The notes beneath the pieces are model-generated. The model saw only the letters and a program-made list of their open reading frames with translations. It was not told the origin of the DNA and ran no database searches. A DNA stretch of 64,000 nucleotides. Source: Candidatus Acidiferrales bacterium (GTDB lineage: Bacteria > Acidobacteriota > Terriglobia > Acidiferrales > UBA7541). Both the position numbers and the translations under genes were made by a program. The stretch spans positions 287,010-351,009 of the forward strand of contig CAVTTX010000004.1 in assembly GCA_963737645.1 (NCBI GenBank), in the 5' to 3' direction. Of this stretch, positions 41,231 through 50,696 are shown one piece after another. The stretch's first letter is position 1. Each line of letters opens with the position of its first letter.

Positions 41231-41521
41231 CTAGGGCAGTACATCGGAAGCCGCGCTTCCGATCACATCGTCTGCCCCGCCGTCCGCGTTCCGGAATTTG
41301 TTTCTCTTGGCATAGGCGACAAACACGACTCCGACGGACATCAGCGTCGGTGGCACGATCAGAATCAAGATGCCGCTCCGTATCGCCTCAATCATTCTTG
41401 ACCCGGACGCAGCTGCTTGCGTATAGCAAAGCGCACAATTTTGGCATAGTGCCAACGGCGTCAGAGAAAGCACAAGCAAACCCAGCATCGCCAGGCGCGA
41501 CAACCTTACACTAACTCGCAT
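41231..41521 (-). CDS. Small exported/membrane protein with CxxC (QNCALC)
   Basis: Signal peptide, CALC, one TM helix, basic tail; last gene of the oxidase operon. Confidence 0.7.
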   Translation of the reverse strand: MRVSVRLSRLAMLGLLVLSLTPLALCQNCALCYTQAAASGSRMIEAIRSGILILIVPPTLMSVGVVFVAYAKRNKFRNADGGADDVIGSAASDVLP

Positions 41522-41554
41522 TTCTGTGTTCCTCTCCCCCTCGCCATAATCGTT

Positions 41555-41881
41555 TCATTTCGCCCCACTCTGCGCCGACCACGGCACTCCATGCAACACC
41601 CGGAAGCTGTCCGTCCATCCGTACTGCAGGGTGATTAGCAGAAACAGCATGACCAAAACCACCGACCAAAGCAGCCCGCGGTTCTCCATCCATAAATGCA
41701 TGAAAAACAGCACCGCAAGAATCGCCTCGACAACCGCCAGAAACAACAGGCGTGACCACAAGTCCCGGCTACCCGCAAAGAAGTACGCCACAATAAACTG
41801 CAACGCAGCCACCACCAGAATGCAGCCATAGGTAACCACGTATTTCGTCATCGCTTTTTGAGGTTTTTCGATAGTGGTCAT
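41555..41881 (-). CDS. Cytochrome c oxidase subunit IV family protein
   Basis: Three TM helices; LAVLFFMHLWME motif; start reassigned to ATG at 41881. Confidence 0.82.
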   Translation of the reverse strand: MTTIEKPQKAMTKYVVTYGCILVVAALQFIVAYFFAGSRDLWSRLLFLAVVEAILAVLFFMHLWMENRGLLWSVVLVMLFLLITLQYGWTDSFRVLHGVPWSAQSGAK

Positions 41882-41904
41882 GACAGTTGCCCTCGACGTC
41901 TTGC

Positions 41905-42522
41905 CTATCGCGAATAATTCAACAGATATACCAGCGGCACAACGAACATCCAAACCAGATCCACGAAATGCCAGTACAAGCCGGTAATTTCCACGTCGTC
42001 TGGCCCATACCGCCCTCGCATGTAGCGAATACCGACAGCTACCAGAGCAATCACACCGCCTGTCACGTGAAGCAGGTGCAACCCGGTAATACTGAAGAAA
42101 GATGCGCCGAAGATTCCCGTTCCCCACGGATTCTTGAACATGCGCATCCCTTCGTCGATCAGCGCCAACCATTCGCGGATGTGTAGCAGGGCGAACAGCG
42201 CTCCACCGGCGGCCGTTATCATCATCCATCGAAACGCGGTGCGCTTGTCTCCGGCCTTGGCGGCTTCAATAGCAAAAAGCACGGTCAGGCTGCTGCTGAT
42301 CAAAATGAAAGTCATGACCCCCACATTGACAAGGCTGTGGAATGGCCTTGGCCAGTTTGGTGTGGCGTTGCGCAAAAAACCATAGGCGACCAGGCAGGCC
42401 GCAAAGGTCGCTGTGTCCGCAATGATGAACAACCACATCGCCAGTTTCTTCGTAGGTATGGCAAAAGCCGGTGCCGCCATACTCGTAGACTCTCCTTTGA
42501 AGGTGATTCCCGGTTCGCTCAC
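41905..42522 (-). CDS. Cytochrome c oxidase subunit III (second paralog)
   Basis: MWLFIIAD, TFILISSSLT, FFSITGLHLLHV, GLYWHFVDLVW. Confidence 0.9.
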   Translation of the reverse strand: MSEPGITFKGESTSMAAPAFAIPTKKLAMWLFIIADTATFAACLVAYGFLRNATPNWPRPFHSLVNVGVMTFILISSSLTVLFAIEAAKAGDKRTAFRWMMITAAGGALFALLHIREWLALIDEGMRMFKNPWGTGIFGASFFSITGLHLLHVTGGVIALVAVGIRYMRGRYGPDDVEITGLYWHFVDLVWMFVVPLVYLLNYSR

Positions 42523-48147: not shown

Positions 48148-48289
48148 GAGGGCGCTCCTTGTTGTTGTAGGCGTTGATACAGACGATCAAAACCTACTCC
48201 ACTCGGGCGCCCTTTTATAATGCGTTTACCATTCATCTTGATACTCCTTTGGTTGGCCGGTGTAAGGAGATCTGCACGAGAAAACACCT

Positions 48290-49165
48290 TCATTTTCCCG
48301 GAAGCGAGCCGTCAGGGTTGAGAGGTTTTAAGCCCATCTGCTTGGCGATGTCCTTCTCTTTGGACTGCATGGGCTGAAGCGTACGCAAATAGAAAACCAG
48401 ACTCCATGCTTCGTCTGGCTTAATATTGTCGGACCACGAGGGCATCGGAGAGCCATCGAGTCCAGTCATGAAGATCTTGTAGAGATCTGCGTCCGATGTG
48501 CCGCACTTAAATCGCGTAAACTCATGGAAATTAAACGCTGGGTCAGGATTATTTTCGTCATCCACCAGCGTGGCCGATGACGGGCCATTTGCTCGCCCGG
48601 TGACGCCGTGACATTTCCAACACTGCACTCTGGAAAAGACCTCTTGACCTTGCTTTACGCGGTCCGCGGTAACCTGCGGTTCAGGCGGGATTTGTATGGG
48701 TGTTCCCGGCTTTTCGCTCACGAAACGCGGGGAAAAATGCTTGACATAGGCGACCAAGTCTATCCGATTCTGTGCAGTCAATGCGCTCCAGTGTGGCATG
48801 TCTGAGGTATTTAGCCCTCGATGCAATGTCCTAAAGAGATCATCATCCGTGGGCAAAGTGCCTGTGGGTGTGGAACGGCATTTGAAAATTCCCAGCGTAA
48901 AATTACGCGGCTTGAAGGGCTCCATCCACGGAGTGTTTTCTCCATTGCCGTCACCAATATCTCCGTGGCACCCGATGCAATATCTCCGGTAGAGCGGCGC
49001 GCCATCTCGAGCGTGGCCTGTGAGGTTACCGACGTGGCTTTCCATATCCATTCGCTTGTTTTCGTCATACTGCGTTTCTTGAGCTCTGGCGGAGCCACCC
49101 ACAGTCAGTCCTAGGAAAACACCGATTCCTGCTGCGATAAGAGGGGTAGTAATCTTTGTTCGCAC
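48290..49165 (-). CDS. Periplasmic diheme c-type cytochrome
   Basis: Signal peptide; CIGCH and CWKCH; distal Met candidates DMPHW and PMPSW. Confidence 0.9.
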   Translation of the reverse strand: MRTKITTPLIAAGIGVFLGLTVGGSARAQETQYDENKRMDMESHVGNLTGHARDGAPLYRRYCIGCHGDIGDGNGENTPWMEPFKPRNFTLGIFKCRSTPTGTLPTDDDLFRTLHRGLNTSDMPHWSALTAQNRIDLVAYVKHFSPRFVSEKPGTPIQIPPEPQVTADRVKQGQEVFSRVQCWKCHGVTGRANGPSSATLVDDENNPDPAFNFHEFTRFKCGTSDADLYKIFMTGLDGSPMPSWSDNIKPDEAWSLVFYLRTLQPMQSKEKDIAKQMGLKPLNPDGSLPGK

Positions 49166-49175
49166 GGTTTACCTC

Positions 49176-50696
49176 TCAGAAATCGAAGTCAAACCCGAAC
49201 AGTAGGCTGCTGGTCGCCAACGGCGTGAAAACGGGCGATGCGCCTTTCTGCCAGATAATCGAGTATTCCGCGTGATAGGCAAACCCCGCACGGCTGTTCA
49301 TGAACGGGTTATAGCGCGCCGCGAAGGTCAACACATCCGCGTTGCTCAGGTTGCCGGGGTTCGACGAAAACGCTTGTTGACTCATGCGGTCCAGTTCGTA
49401 TCGCTGGATCAGGATTAGCTGTGGATTGAAGGTGTAGTGGCTCTCAAACAGCGCGCCATTCCACGTTGGTGCGTGCGCCCCTGCTGGGAGAACCTCCCCG
49501 GGAAGTGCGGGCGTGTCGGTACCTAACCAGGCGTTGTCCTTGCCGTGGAAATAAATTGCGAAGATATCGAACTTCTTGATGTAGAAGTCGCCCAGCAGGC
49601 CATACCGTTGAATGAGCTTGTTGCCAATTCCGGTACCTGCGTAGGGCGTTGTCGTTGTGGCCACCACTGGAGCGCCAGTGACAGAGTCCGTCCCGATCGG
49701 AGCACTTGTCGTTAAGTTGTATTGGTAATACGTCGGCTCCTGGCCGAGAAAGGCAAACCCCCCAACACGCTGCAAACCAAGGCCCCCAATCTCAAAGGCA
49801 TGGCTCGCAGTCAAGAATGTGCCGTAACCGCGACTGGTCGGCAGGTTCACTTGACCGTCGTTCGCGCTTAGTAACGCGACCGAGTATCGATTTCGGTCAT
49901 CCGCGGAATGCCCCAACAGTTCCAGGCCCAACTGATTGTCTCCGATGCCGAAGGTGTAATTTTCCGGAACGCCGGGTGACGAGAAGGGTTGGAAATGATA
50001 GTTCTCGTAAACCCCGCCCACGTTGGTCAACGTCAGGATGCGCTTTTCCGACAATAGATTGTCCAATTCAAATTTGCCTAATTTGATGTTTATCCAGGGC
50101 GTCCCGAAAACGTTGTCCAACCGAGCCCACACCGACTCGAAATGAAAAGACGCCGTGGGATCCGAAGAGGGCAGCACATAGAAAGAGAAGTTCTTTGCCA
50201 GCGTTCCGCCGGTGTGGAAGTCCAACCCGCTCAAGTCGAACCCTGACGTGGTGATTTTCGCTAGATTGGCGCCCGGCCCCGCAGGACCATCCACTGGTGC
50301 TGCGCTGGTGCTTTCTCTATGCCAGATTGGCGTAATTCGAAAGGTCACCGGCCAGTAGCTCGGATTTTGATAAATGGGCGCGTCGTGATCATTTCCCAGT
50401 TGATAGCCATTGTCTTTGAATTGTTGACCGAACGGGCTGAGCATCGGCCACGATTGGTGACAAGCAGAACAGGGCAAGCCATACTTTCGGGCGAACGCGG
50501 GTAATGCCTGTGACGTTTCCGGAAAGAGAAAGAAAATCAGAACTAGTACGACCAACCAACTGCTCATGCGAGCAGCCCTGTACCGCCCACAGCTCCGGAT
50601 CCGTCCTACACGGCAATTTTCAGGATGATCGCCTTTCTCATTCCACTCTAAGAAGGACACATTCCAAGTCTGGCCATGGCCAGAATCCACTTTCAT
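49176..50696 (-). CDS. Cyc2-like fused monoheme cytochrome c / outer-membrane beta-barrel (start 50696 or 50567)
   Basis: After the signal peptide: ALPAFARKYGLPCSACH...PMLSPFGQQFKDNGY; beta-strand-rich remainder ending FGFDFDF. Confidence 0.78.
   Translation of the reverse strand: MKVDSGHGQTWNVSFLEWNEKGDHPENCRVGRIRSCGRYRAARMSSWLVVLVLIFFLFPETSQALPAFARKYGLPCSACHQSWPMLSPFGQQFKDNGYQLGNDHDAPIYQNPSYWPVTFRITPIWHRESTSAAPVDGPAGPGANLAKITTSGFDLSGLDFHTGGTLAKNFSFYVLPSSDPTASFHFESVWARLDNVFGTPWINIKLGKFELDNLLSEKRILTLTNVGGVYENYHFQPFSSPGVPENYTFGIGDNQLGLELLGHSADDRNRYSVALLSANDGQVNLPTSRGYGTFLTASHAFEIGGLGLQRVGGFAFLGQEPTYYQYNLTTSAPIGTDSVTGAPVVATTTTPYAGTGIGNKLIQRYGLLGDFYIKKFDIFAIYFHGKDNAWLGTDTPALPGEVLPAGAHAPTWNGALFESHYTFNPQLILIQRYELDRMSQQAFSSNPGNLSNADVLTFAARYNPFMNSRAGFAYHAEYSIIWQKGASPVFTPLATSSLLFGFDFDF

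What the first reader, a model, noticed from the sequence alone, without database searches (positions are those of the whole stretch)
41231..50696. rus-operon-like electron conduit (Cyc2-like porin-cytochrome, diheme c, blue copper protein, oxidase) in a probable Acidobacterium
Seen: nine co-directional, mostly tightly spaced genes in the order cytochrome-porin, diheme cytochrome c, cupredoxin-like protein, oxidase II, I, IIIa, IIIb, IV, CxxC protein. The first has ALPAFARKYG-x2-CSACH...P.L..FG..FK..GY and a barrel-type terminal Phe. Known: that N-terminus is the Cyc2 signature, and the Acidithiobacillus ferrooxidans rus operon is cyc2-cyc1-cup-coxBACD-rus. Inference: a complete outer-membrane-to-O2 chain for oxidising Fe(II) or another extracellular donor, built from non-orthologous periplasmic parts, in a lineage regarded mainly as heterotrophic. 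Cyc2 homologs do occur in organisms not shown to oxidise iron.
Basis: partly seen in the sequence, partly recalled or inferred. Interest (0 to 1): 0.92.

Follow-up and report, generated by a model that had tools for sequence, protein, structure and literature searches.

The report
Cyc2-type iron-oxidation operon, IS-interrupted
A soil acidobacterium carries a gene cluster, widely conserved in its class and transcribed in peat, that looks built to pass electrons from dissolved iron outside the cell to oxygen; in this genome a mobile element has landed inside one of its genes.

Summary
A 1,540-bp IS110-family element (46685-48224) sits after codon 4 of the copper-protein gene.

The first protein meets every published sequence criterion for Cyc2:
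- ALPAFARKY, one CSACH, PML four residues later, at least 463 aa.
- A confident model (pLDDT 89.5) shows a small helical haem domain plus a porin barrel. Its nearest solved folds are PorB, OprP and OprO.

The order Cyc2-like, dihaem c, copper protein, CoxB, A, C, C, D, small protein recurs in about 75 of 84 related loci, all Terriglobia MAGs. None carries the IS. Metal-ligand motifs are conserved throughout.

Distant homologues sit beside a cbb3 oxidase, or beside an aa3 oxidase in a different gene order.

Peat metatranscriptome contigs of a relative run from the Cyc2-like gene into coxB.

The most likely function is aerobic oxidation of dissolved Fe(II). This is inferred, not shown.

The dihaem c is not Cyc1, and the cupredoxin call rests on motif evidence only.

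The Cyc2-like gene also looks recombined in from another Acidoferrales lineage.

Verdict: a new variant of a known kind, and probably impaired in this genome.

The parts
49176..50696 (-). Cyc2-family fused monohaem cytochrome-porin. Start is ATG 50696 or ATG 50567; mature protein begins about ...SQA|LPAFARKYG.
   Evidence: - Motifs ALPAFARKY-GLP-CSACH-QSW-PML and a terminal F, matching the criteria of Keffer 2021.
- AF2 model: pLDDT 89.5, helical domain at residues 25-66 plus about 18 strands.
- Foldseek: PorB, OprP, OprO.
- 5152 homologues.
- No Pfam or NCBIfam model matches.
48290..49165 (-). Periplasmic dihaem cytochrome c with a signal peptide and two CXXCH motifs.
   Evidence: - Pfam Cytochrome_CBB3 x2.
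- PDB 6H5L chain B, E 8e-51. This is the dihaem partner chain of a Kuenenia HAO-like protein entry.
- NCBIfam cytochrome579: 45.5 bits against a cut-off of 280.
48225..48236 (-). First four codons (MNGK) and, upstream, the ribosome-binding site of the copper-protein gene, cut off from the rest by the IS.
   Evidence: Alignment with L010 and L027 intergenic regions and with P0121 (MNGKHGLNI...).
46685..48224 (-). IS110-family insertion element, 1,540 bp. Transposase at 47080-48147; long non-coding 3' end of about 395 nt.
   Evidence: - Pfam DEDD_Tnp_IS110 plus Transposase_20. NCBIfam transpos_IS110 scores 120.8 bits, below the cut-off of 140.
- Absent from all 84 related loci.
- In soil metagenomes its k-mer depth is 5-10x that of the flanks, and contigs break at 46684 and 48224-48231.
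- The same insertion is present in a second assembly, L090.
45944..46684 (-). Remainder of the copper-protein gene. A CarboxypepD_reg beta-sandwich with a nested domain carrying H128/H131...C169-x2-H172-x2-M175, a probable type-1 Cu site.
   Evidence: - Pfam CarboxypepD_reg, E 1e-12, on the C-terminal part only.
- Motif KCN[IV]HPWMHG in 83 of 84 loci.
- hhalign to amicyanin: E 0.0034, probability 9.5%, ligands in register.
- No cupredoxin hit in Pfam or PDB.
- An in-frame ATG at 46879 inside the IS reads into the gene.
45076..45876 (-). CoxB, subunit II of an aa3-type oxidase. CuA site present; no fused cytochrome c domain.
   Evidence: - Pfam COX2 and TIGR02866.
- CTQLCGLGHYNM, conserved in 77 of 84 loci.
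- No CXXCH in the sequence.
43253..45028 (-). CoxA, subunit I of an A1-type haem-copper oxidase (GHPEV).
   Evidence: - Pfam COX1 E 2e-122; TIGR02891 E 4.5e-158.
- 95% identical to the L010 CoxA.
42538..43221 (-). CoxC-a, subunit III, first copy.
   Evidence: Pfam COX3. Conserved position in relatives.
41905..42522 (-). CoxC-b, subunit III, second copy.
   Evidence: Pfam COX3. Conserved position in relatives.
41555..41881 (-). CoxD, subunit IV.
   Evidence: Pfam COX4_pro, E 7.5e-6, below the cut-off. Start mapped. Conserved position.
41231..41521 (-). Small membrane protein with a signal peptide, CQNCALC and a C-terminal TM helix. Function unknown.
   Evidence: No family hit. A homologue closes the cluster in nearly all relatives, at 45-72% identity.

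Best explanation
**What it is.** The locus is the Acidoferrales (Terriglobia) version of a Cyc2-based respiratory branch that carries electrons from an extracellular soluble donor to O2.

**Proposed electron path**
1. Dissolved Fe(II), free or organically complexed, enters the outer-membrane barrel of the Cyc2-like protein. It is oxidised at the single c-haem of the N-terminal domain.
2. The electron passes to the periplasmic dihaem cytochrome c, to the probable type-1 copper protein, or through both.
3. It then reaches CuA of CoxB. This subunit II has no cytochrome c domain of its own, so it needs an external donor.
4. It passes through haem a and haem a3-CuB of CoxA to O2, which builds proton-motive force.

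In acidic soil and peat this would give organotrophic Terriglobia a supplementary lithotrophic energy source.

**Shown**
- Family membership by sequence motifs.
- The barrel fold.
- Conserved synteny and conserved ligands.
- Repeated linkage of the module to oxidases.
- In-situ transcription in a relative.

**Inferred**
- The donor.
- The order of the two periplasmic carriers.
- The copper site.
- The direction of electron flow.

**State in this genome.** A 1,540-bp IS110 element sits after codon 4 of the copper-protein gene. Here the chain is probably impaired, or depends on read-through and an IS-derived start codon.
For: - **Motifs.** The Cyc2 defining motifs are all present (against the criteria).
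- **Fold.** The high-confidence model is a haem domain plus a porin. Its best solved-structure matches are PorB, OprP and OprO. These are the folds reported for Cyc2 and Cyt572.
- **Synteny.** The nine-gene order is conserved in nearly all of 84 loci from Acidoferrales, Acidobacteriaceae, Ca. Sulfotelmatobacter and Terriglobales MAGs.
- **Ligands.** Haem, CuA and H/C/H/M motifs are conserved in 77-84 of 84 loci.
- **Independent linkage to oxidases.**
  - L086 has CarboxypepD_reg protein, Cyc2-like, dihaem c, then a cbb3 oxidase.
  - L088 has the same trio followed by an aa3 oxidase in a different gene order.
- **CoxB** lacks a c-domain. Housekeeping acidobacterial oxidases are caa3 types in bc1 or ACIII superoperons.
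- **Transcription.** Peat metatranscriptome contigs cover a relative's cluster. Coverage starts just upstream of the Cyc2-like gene and is near zero before it. One contig runs from the Cyc2-like gene through the dihaem and copper-protein genes into coxB.
Against: - No biochemical or physiological data exist for any member of this clade, and Fe(II) is only the precedent-based guess.
- Keffer 2021 stresses that Cyc2 homologues far from the characterised ones are of uncertain function.
- Cluster placement could not be tested.
- The nearest non-Terriglobia relatives are from Nitrospirota and Thermoanaerobaculia MAGs, not known iron oxidisers.
- The copper protein has no significant match to any cupredoxin model.
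- All loci seen are MAGs, and no isolate was identified.
- Ca. Acidoferrum was proposed as an Fe(III) reducer, not an oxidiser.
- In this window the IS interrupts the operon.
- RNA evidence comes from assembled contigs of a relative (54-56% identical Cyc2-like protein), not from this organism.
Confidence: 0.55

Rival explanations
1. The architecture and the inward electron flow to O2 are as described, but the physiological donor is not Fe(II). Candidates are reduced humic or quinone moieties, Mn(II), or another small soluble reductant that can enter the pore.
For: - Nothing in the sequence specifies the substrate.
- Cyc2 homologues occur in organisms not known to oxidise iron, and other functions are explicitly left open.
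- Homologues are abundant in organic-rich peat, where the cluster is transcribed.
- A Nitrospira homologue sits beside chemotaxis genes rather than an oxidase.
Against: - Every characterised family member (A. ferrooxidans Cyc2, Cyt572, Cyc2PV-1, and the Ca. Mariimomonas Cyc2) oxidises Fe(II).
- A porin-sized pore with a single haem favours a small aquo or chelated ion.
Confidence: 0.2
2. The dihaem c, copper protein and aa3 genes are an ordinary respiratory branch fed from bc1 or ACIII. The Cyc2-like protein serves another role: Fe(II) detoxification, redox sensing, or outward electron transfer to soluble Fe(III).
For: - Ca. Acidoferrum was named for a presumed Fe(III)-reducing potential.
- Three loci (L024, L031, L079) have the Cyc2-like, dihaem and copper-protein trio without an adjacent oxidase.
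- One Nitrospirota homologue stands alone.
Against: - Acidobacterial housekeeping oxidases are caa3 types linked to bc1 or ACIII, whereas this one is a separate c-domain-less aa3.
- The trio is attached to three different oxidase arrangements. That is hard to explain unless the electrons end at the oxidase.
- The Cyc2-like gene leads the transcript.
Confidence: 0.15
3. In this particular genome the conduit is non-functional. It is a recently inactivated operon on the way to decay, because the IS110 element removes the start and signal-peptide n-region of the copper protein and is polar on the oxidase genes.
For: - The IS lies after codon 4.
- It is present in two assemblies, and no empty-site joint was seen in four metagenome runs.
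- The element is multicopy.
- A second IS (IS3 family) lies 1.4 kb upstream of the cluster.
Against: - All downstream ORFs are intact and 76-95% identical to L010.
- The transposase is co-directional, so read-through is possible.
- An in-frame ATG at 46879 inside the IS reads into the gene.
- Contigs drop rare variants, so intact alleles may coexist.
Confidence: 0.4

Closest known systems
Acidithiobacillus ferrooxidans rus operon (cyc2-cyc1-cup-coxBACD-rus)
   Same: - One transcription unit headed by a Cyc2-family cytochrome-porin.
- Followed by a dihaem cytochrome c, then a copper-protein gene, then a complete aa3-type oxidase.
- Found in acid-habitat organisms.
   Different: - The dihaem c is not a c4-type Cyc1. 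Its best solved relative is the dihaem chain of Kuenenia entry 6H5L.
- There is no rusticyanin gene.
- The copper candidate is nested in a CarboxypepD_reg sandwich and matches no cupredoxin model.
- There are two subunit III genes and an extra small CxxC membrane protein.
- The Cyc2-like proteins are related mainly through the roughly 50-residue haem domain.
Leptospirillum Cyt572 / Cyt579 system (Cyc2 'Cluster 3')
   Same: - A published similarity network places Acidobacteria and Nitrospira homologues next to Cyt572, and its model also matches PorB best, as does ours.
- The next-nearest relatives of the window protein are Nitrospirota proteins.
- The dihaem c gives a weak cytochrome579 match.
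   Different: - The Leptospirillum genes are not clustered and feed a cbb3 oxidase.
- The cytochrome579 score is 45.5 against a cut-off of 280, so the dihaem c is not a member.
Neutrophilic Cyc2 pathway (Mariprofundus Cyc2PV-1, Gallionellaceae; 'Cluster 1')
   Same: Same consensus motif, single haem, and a porin structurally like OprO/OprP.
   Different: - Those organisms are autotrophic microaerophiles using cbb3 oxidases, with unlinked genes.
- Here the gene is fused into an aa3 operon in presumed organotrophs of acidic soils.
Porin-cytochrome complexes MtoAB / PioAB / MtrCAB
   Same: An outer-membrane barrel plus c-haem for electron exchange with extracellular iron.
   Different: Those are two-protein complexes, with a 26-strand barrel and a decahaem wire able to reach solids. 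Here there is one polypeptide, one haem and a smaller barrel.

Membership tests
Cyc2 fused cytochrome-porin (criteria of Keffer et al. 2021, PMC8406198) | N-terminal signal peptide | tested here: met
   The hydrophobic stretch WLVVLVLIFFLF ends in SQA|LP directly before the motif. This was read by eye; no SignalP run was made.
Cyc2 fused cytochrome-porin (criteria of Keffer et al. 2021, PMC8406198) | Single CXXCH haem-binding motif near the N terminus | tested here: met
   One CSACH in the whole protein. C33, C36 and H37 are invariant in a 144-sequence alignment.
Cyc2 fused cytochrome-porin (criteria of Keffer et al. 2021, PMC8406198) | AXPXFAR[Q/K][T/Y] motif just upstream of CXXCH | tested here: met
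   ALPAFARKY followed by GLP-CSACH. The motif is present in 84 of 84 related loci.
Cyc2 fused cytochrome-porin (criteria of Keffer et al. 2021, PMC8406198) | PXL motif four residues after CXXCH | tested here: met
   CSACH-QSW-PML. P41 and L43 are invariant.
Cyc2 fused cytochrome-porin (criteria of Keffer et al. 2021, PMC8406198) | Length of at least 365 aa | tested here: met
   463 aa from ATG 50567, or 506 aa from ATG 50696.
Cyc2 fused cytochrome-porin (criteria of Keffer et al. 2021, PMC8406198) | C-terminal beta-barrel porin (16 strands predicted for Cyc2PV-1; structural likeness to OprO/OprP) | tested here: met
   - AF2 model: pLDDT 89.5, pTM 0.84.
- Foldseek: OprP 2o4v TMq 0.54, OprO 4rjw 0.51, PorB E 1e-12.
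- The DSSP string gives about 18 long strands rather than 16. The exact count could not be settled without coordinates.
Cyc2 fused cytochrome-porin (criteria of Keffer et al. 2021, PMC8406198) | Match to a FeGenie Cyc2 HMM and placement in Cluster 1, 2 or 3 | not testable with these tools
   Neither the FeGenie HMMs nor reference sequences (A. ferrooxidans Cyc2, Cyc2PV-1, Cyt572) were available. There are only indirect hints of a Cyt572/Nitrospirota neighbourhood.
Cyc2 fused cytochrome-porin (criteria of Keffer et al. 2021, PMC8406198) | Fe(II) oxidase activity | not testable with these tools
   This needs expression with a ccm helper plasmid and an Fe(II) assay, as.
rus operon of Acidithiobacillus | Cyc1, a c4-type dihaem cytochrome | tested here: not met
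   The PDB search at E<=1 returned no c4/Cyc1 structure. The best hit is 6H5L_B, E 8e-51.
rus operon of Acidithiobacillus | Rusticyanin gene | tested here: not met
   No rusticyanin-like ORF lies in 41231-50696. The only copper candidate has no cupredoxin-family hit.
rus operon of Acidithiobacillus | aa3-type oxidase genes coxBACD in the same unit as cyc2 | tested here: met
   COX2, COX1, COX3 x2 and COX4_pro lie downstream on the same strand. The arrangement is conserved.
Type-1 (blue) copper cupredoxin | His...Cys-xn-His-xn-Met ligand set | tested here: met
   THNIH...KCNIHPWMHG. H128, H131, C169, H172 and M175 are invariant in 25 homologues, and the motif is present in 83 of 84 loci.
Type-1 (blue) copper cupredoxin | Cupredoxin Greek-key beta-sandwich fold, or a family-model match | tested here: inconclusive
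   - No Pfam or PDB cupredoxin hit.
IS110 family insertion sequence | DEDD transposase with N-terminal IS110 and C-terminal Transposase_20 domains | tested here: met
   Pfam PF01548 plus PF02371. NCBIfam transpos_IS110 scores 120.8 bits, below the curated cut-off of 140.
IS110 family insertion sequence | Discrete mobile unit: multicopy, absent from the orthologous site | tested here: met
   - Depth is 5-10x that of the flanks.
- A second copy lies on the L090 contig.
- No IS at this site in 84 relatives.
- The empty site was reconstructed.

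The most novel reading that the evidence does not exclude
Abundant soil and peat Terriglobia are facultative aerobic Fe(II) oxidisers. They would use a dedicated, vertically conserved and in-situ-transcribed respiratory branch: Cyc2-like porin-cytochrome, then dihaem c, then a new nested blue-copper protein, then a c-domain-less aa3 oxidase. The three-gene uptake module (porin-cytochrome, dihaem c, CarboxypepD_reg-nested copper protein) would be a portable unit. 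It plugs into aa3 or cbb3 oxidases in several phyla, and its porin gene is exchanged between lineages.
Probability: 0.4. Interest if true: 0.85.

Novelty: new variant of a known kind. Interest (0 to 1): 0.72.

Why it matters
Terriglobia are among the most abundant bacteria in acidic soils and peat, and they are treated as organotrophs.

- **Unassigned iron oxidation.** If this conserved, transcribed operon oxidises Fe(II), a large share of iron oxidation in acidic, organic-rich soils would have an unrecognised biological agent. That bears on phosphorus release, carbon stabilisation on iron oxides and greenhouse-gas fluxes in thawing peat.
- **Testable parts.** The cluster offers a compact set of proteins to test: a one-polypeptide outer-membrane oxidase, a new kind of copper carrier, and an oxidase that depends on external donors.
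- **Better marker.** Synteny gives a stronger marker than cyc2 alone for reading metagenomes.
- **Caveat from this copy.** The IS-interrupted copy shows that presence of cyc2 in a MAG does not guarantee an intact pathway.

Tried and rejected
- **Family libraries.** Pfam and NCBIfam have no model for the Cyc2-like protein.
- **First structure model.** A first AF2 run with 18 close homologues gave pLDDT 40.6 and was discarded.
- **Cupredoxin tests.** Single-sequence and profile searches of PDB, a Pfam scan of the isolated domain, and a Pfam scan of 25 homologues found only the CarboxypepD_reg part.
- **RNA families.** Rfam found nothing in 40500-51500, including the IS ends.
- **Promoters and terminators.** The consensus scan was at or below shuffle expectation for promoters and uninformative for operon boundaries.
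- **RNA runs.** No RNA run holds the window's own sequence.
- **Cultured carriers.** Two cluster look-ups aimed at finding named or cultured carriers returned only unnamed proteins or MAG proteins.
- **Plasmid search.** tblastn against plasmids matched only the haem domain of Ralstonia and Caballeronia Cyc2 homologues. The annotated Caballeronia CDS starts after the haem motif, so the profile comparison covered only 27 columns.
- **Literature.** Cyc2 homologues are flagged in Acidobacteriota MAG surveys and in a similarity network. No description of this operon was found, and the Ca. Acidoferrum paper does not mention Cyc2 in its main text.
- **Rejected reading.** I rejected the idea that the gene row is a chance juxtaposition, given synteny in about 75 genomes.
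- **Not excluded.** I considered an MtoAB-like solid-phase conduit. It is disfavoured, not excluded: there is one haem and a porin-sized barrel.

Full report
**Observation**

- Pfam and NCBIfam confirm a dihaem cytochrome c, COX2, COX1, two COX3 and COX4_pro.
- CoxB has the CuA motif CTQLCGLGHYNM and no CXXCH. CoxA has GHPEV. The enzyme is therefore an A1-type aa3 oxidase without a fused c-domain.
- The Cyc2-like ORF and the last small ORF match no library model.

**The insertion**

I compared the window with its closest syntenic relative (L010) and with a 96%-identical homologue of the copper protein (P0121, MNGKHGLNI...).
- The native ribosome-binding site and first four codons (ATG AAT GGT AAA, 48236-48225) lie upstream of the element. 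The gene resumes at 46684 (HGLNISAAAMLLLF...).
- The element is therefore 46685-48224, 1,540 bp, inside the signal-peptide region of the gene.
- In four soil metagenome runs that hold the locus, the element has 5-10 times the k-mer depth of its flanks. Contigs break at 46684 and 48224-48231, and no empty-site joint is seen.
- A second assembly has the same insertion and another copy of the transposase nearby.
- None of 84 related loci has it.
- Downstream ORFs are intact. An in-frame ATG at 46879 inside the element reads into the gene. Whether the chain still works here is open.

**Is the first protein a Cyc2?**

Keffer et al. 2021 define the family by these features: a signal peptide, a single CXXCH, AXPXFAR[Q/K][T/Y] upstream, PXL four residues downstream, at least 365 aa, and a porin structurally like OprO/OprP.
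- The window protein reads ...SQA|LPAFARKYGLPCSACHQSWPML..., has one CXXCH and is 463-506 aa.
- A shallow alignment gave a useless model.
- A 144-sequence alignment spanning 26-89% identity gave pLDDT 89.5 and pTM 0.84. The model has a small helical domain (residues 25-66) followed by about 18 long strands.
- Foldseek against the PDB returns only outer-membrane porins: PorB (E 1e-12), OprP 2o4v (best TMq, 0.54) and OprO 4rjw/4rjx. These are the folds reported for Cyc2 and for Leptospirillum Cyt572.
- All testable membership criteria are met. Cluster placement and activity could not be tested.
- tblastn against plasmids matched only the haem domain of Ralstonia and Caballeronia Cyc2 homologues, at 44-55% over residues 18-65. 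This fits the published statement that only the cytochrome part is well conserved.

**Distribution and synteny**

- The protein has 5152 homologues in the word-indexed search, and 2488 clusters at 50% identity with E<=1e-3.
- A motif scan of one genome per GTDB species found more than 583 genomes. The best 80 are all Terriglobia MAGs: Acidoferrales, Acidobacteriaceae, Ca. Sulfotelmatobacter and Terriglobales.
- In these plus four further contigs, the order Cyc2-like, dihaem c, copper protein, coxB, coxA, coxC, coxC, coxD, small protein is kept wherever the contig is long enough.
- There are three exceptions. L024 and L031 have the trio alone. In L079 the trio is followed by a haem O synthase-like gene.
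- Ligand motifs are conserved: Cyc2 motif 84/84, dihaem 83/84, KCN[IV]HPWM 83/84, CuA 77/84. The CuA misses are mostly contig ends.

**Beyond Terriglobia**

The next relatives (31-37% identity) come from Thermoanaerobaculia, Nitrospirota and a MAG labelled Myxococcaceae. Their contexts are informative.
- In L086 a CarboxypepD_reg protein, the Cyc2-like gene and a dihaem c precede a cbb3 oxidase.
- In L088 the same trio precedes an aa3 oxidase with a different gene order.
- A Nitrospira homologue pairs with a monohaem c and chemotaxis genes, and one stands alone.

The recurrent attachment of the trio to three oxidase arrangements is the strongest comparative argument that electrons end at O2.

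**The periplasmic parts**

- The dihaem c is not Cyc1. Its best solved relative is chain B of 6H5L (E 8e-51), an entry of a Kuenenia HAO-like protein. From memory, chain B is its dihaem redox partner.
- The cytochrome579 model scores far below its cut-off.
- The copper candidate has a CarboxypepD_reg sandwich whose two halves flank an inserted domain of about 90 residues. That domain carries invariant H128/H131, C169, H172 and M175.
- The spacing C-x2-H-x2-M and the strings THNIH / KCNIHPWMHGYFVVV resemble amicyanin. An hhalign comparison puts all ligands in register but is weak (E 0.0034, probability 9.5%).
- No Pfam or PDB search finds a cupredoxin. I treat the copper site as probable, not shown.

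**Expression**

No RNA run holds the window itself. For L056, a Stordalen-type bog Acidobacteriaceae MAG with the same nine genes, many peat metatranscriptomes hold up to 92% of sampled words.
- Laid on the locus, RNA-derived contigs give depth 20-40 from about 3983, just upstream of the Cyc2-like start at 4040, to the end of the cluster. Depth is about 0-7 before it.
- One contig (5107-7499) joins the Cyc2-like, dihaem, copper-protein and coxB genes. Others bridge further junctions.
- Contig depth is a crude measure, and DNA carry-over cannot be excluded. The sharp upstream boundary argues for a transcript.

**Mechanism and rivals**

- The best reading is an inward chain from dissolved Fe(II) to O2. 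It would suit acidic soils, where Fe(II) persists, and high-potential carriers (a copper protein and an aa3 oxidase), as in acidophiles. This energetic reasoning is from general knowledge.
- Housekeeping oxidases of cultured Acidobacteriaceae are caa3 types in bc1 or ACIII superoperons, with extra 'single' oxidases of unknown role. The present oxidase is a distinct branch that depends on an external donor.
- Rivals are another soluble donor, a different role for the porin-cytochrome (detoxification, sensing, or outward transfer as implied by the Fe(III)-reducer proposal for Ca. Acidoferrum), and inactivation in this genome.

**Novelty**

- Cyc2 homologues in Acidobacteriota have been flagged by marker-gene surveys and by a similarity network that places Acidobacteria and Nitrospira sequences next to Cyt572.
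- I found no description of this operon, its copper protein, its breadth in Terriglobia or its transcription. The library searched is incomplete.
- It is a new variant of a known kind of system, not a new kind.

**Side observations**

- Eight of the nine genes are closest to L010 (76-95% aa), and the flanks are syntenic with it. The Cyc2-like gene is only 68% identical to L010's but 88-89% identical to the Ca. Acidiferrum type (L001-L004), whose other genes are 49-73% identical.
- The nucleotide match to that type (84.5%) spans exactly 49172-50507, the mature coding part. This points to replacement of the porin-cytochrome gene by recombination.

Noticed in passing
window 49172-50507, compared with L002, L010 and L001-L007: Mosaic ancestry. 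The mature part of the Cyc2-like gene is 84.5% (nt) and 88-89% (aa) identical to the Ca. Acidiferrum type, but only 69% (nt) and 68% (aa) identical to L010. All eight downstream genes and the flanks are closest to L010 (76-95% aa). This looks like a precise replacement of the porin-cytochrome gene by recombination between Acidoferrales lineages.
   Followed up: partly
window 52143-53335 (+), flanked by 51515-52099 (-) and 53325-54161 (-): An IS3-family element (HTH_Tnp_1 orfA plus rve orfB) appears to split a glycosyltransferase gene into a C-terminal fragment (UDPGT/EryCIII-like_C) and an N-terminal fragment. It is a second IS within 1.5 kb of the cluster, and is present in the second assembly L090 too.
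   Followed up: partly
window 50568-50696; also P0031, P0086, P0100: The 43-codon stretch upstream of the signal peptide (MKVDSG...W...KGD.P...AARM) is conserved at the amino-acid level in several relatives, which gene callers also start there. It may be a real long N-terminal extension or a conserved leader. The true start was not resolved.
   Followed up: partly
L054 13213-14079; same position in L039, L064, L068, L084; also L002 17943-18827 (-): A protein of about 290 aa with a membrane N-terminus and a C-terminal STAS (anti-sigma-antagonist-like) domain is inserted between the copper-protein gene and coxB in five relatives. In others it lies just downstream of the cluster. It may be a partner-switching regulator of the operon.
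   Followed up: partly
L027 and L034 (same MAG, DATIXE01): One MAG carries two complete copies of the nine-gene cluster. They differ markedly: CoxA is 87% versus 71% identical to the window's. This is either a true paralogous pair or a mixed bin.
   Followed up: no
window 46685-47079: The IS110-family element has a short 5' end (77 nt before the transposase ATG) and a long non-coding 3' end (about 395 nt). NCBIfam also gives a weak hit to TIGR-Tas RNA-guided endonuclease (E 4.7e-10). No Rfam family matched. Whether the 3' end encodes a guide RNA was not examined.
   Followed up: partly
window 41231-41521 and the homologous last gene of the cluster in nearly all relatives: A conserved small protein (signal peptide, CQNCALC, one TM helix) with no family match always closes the oxidase operon. 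It may be an assembly or copper-handling factor.
   Followed up: no
L085 6001-7266 (Caballeronia sp. SBC1 plasmid pSBC1_3): The annotated 'cytochrome C' CDS (6058-7266) of this Cyc2 homologue starts downstream of the tblastn match to the haem-domain motif (6001-6141), so the annotated start is probably too late. A HiPIP gene and a c-type cytochrome gene are its neighbours.
   Followed up: no
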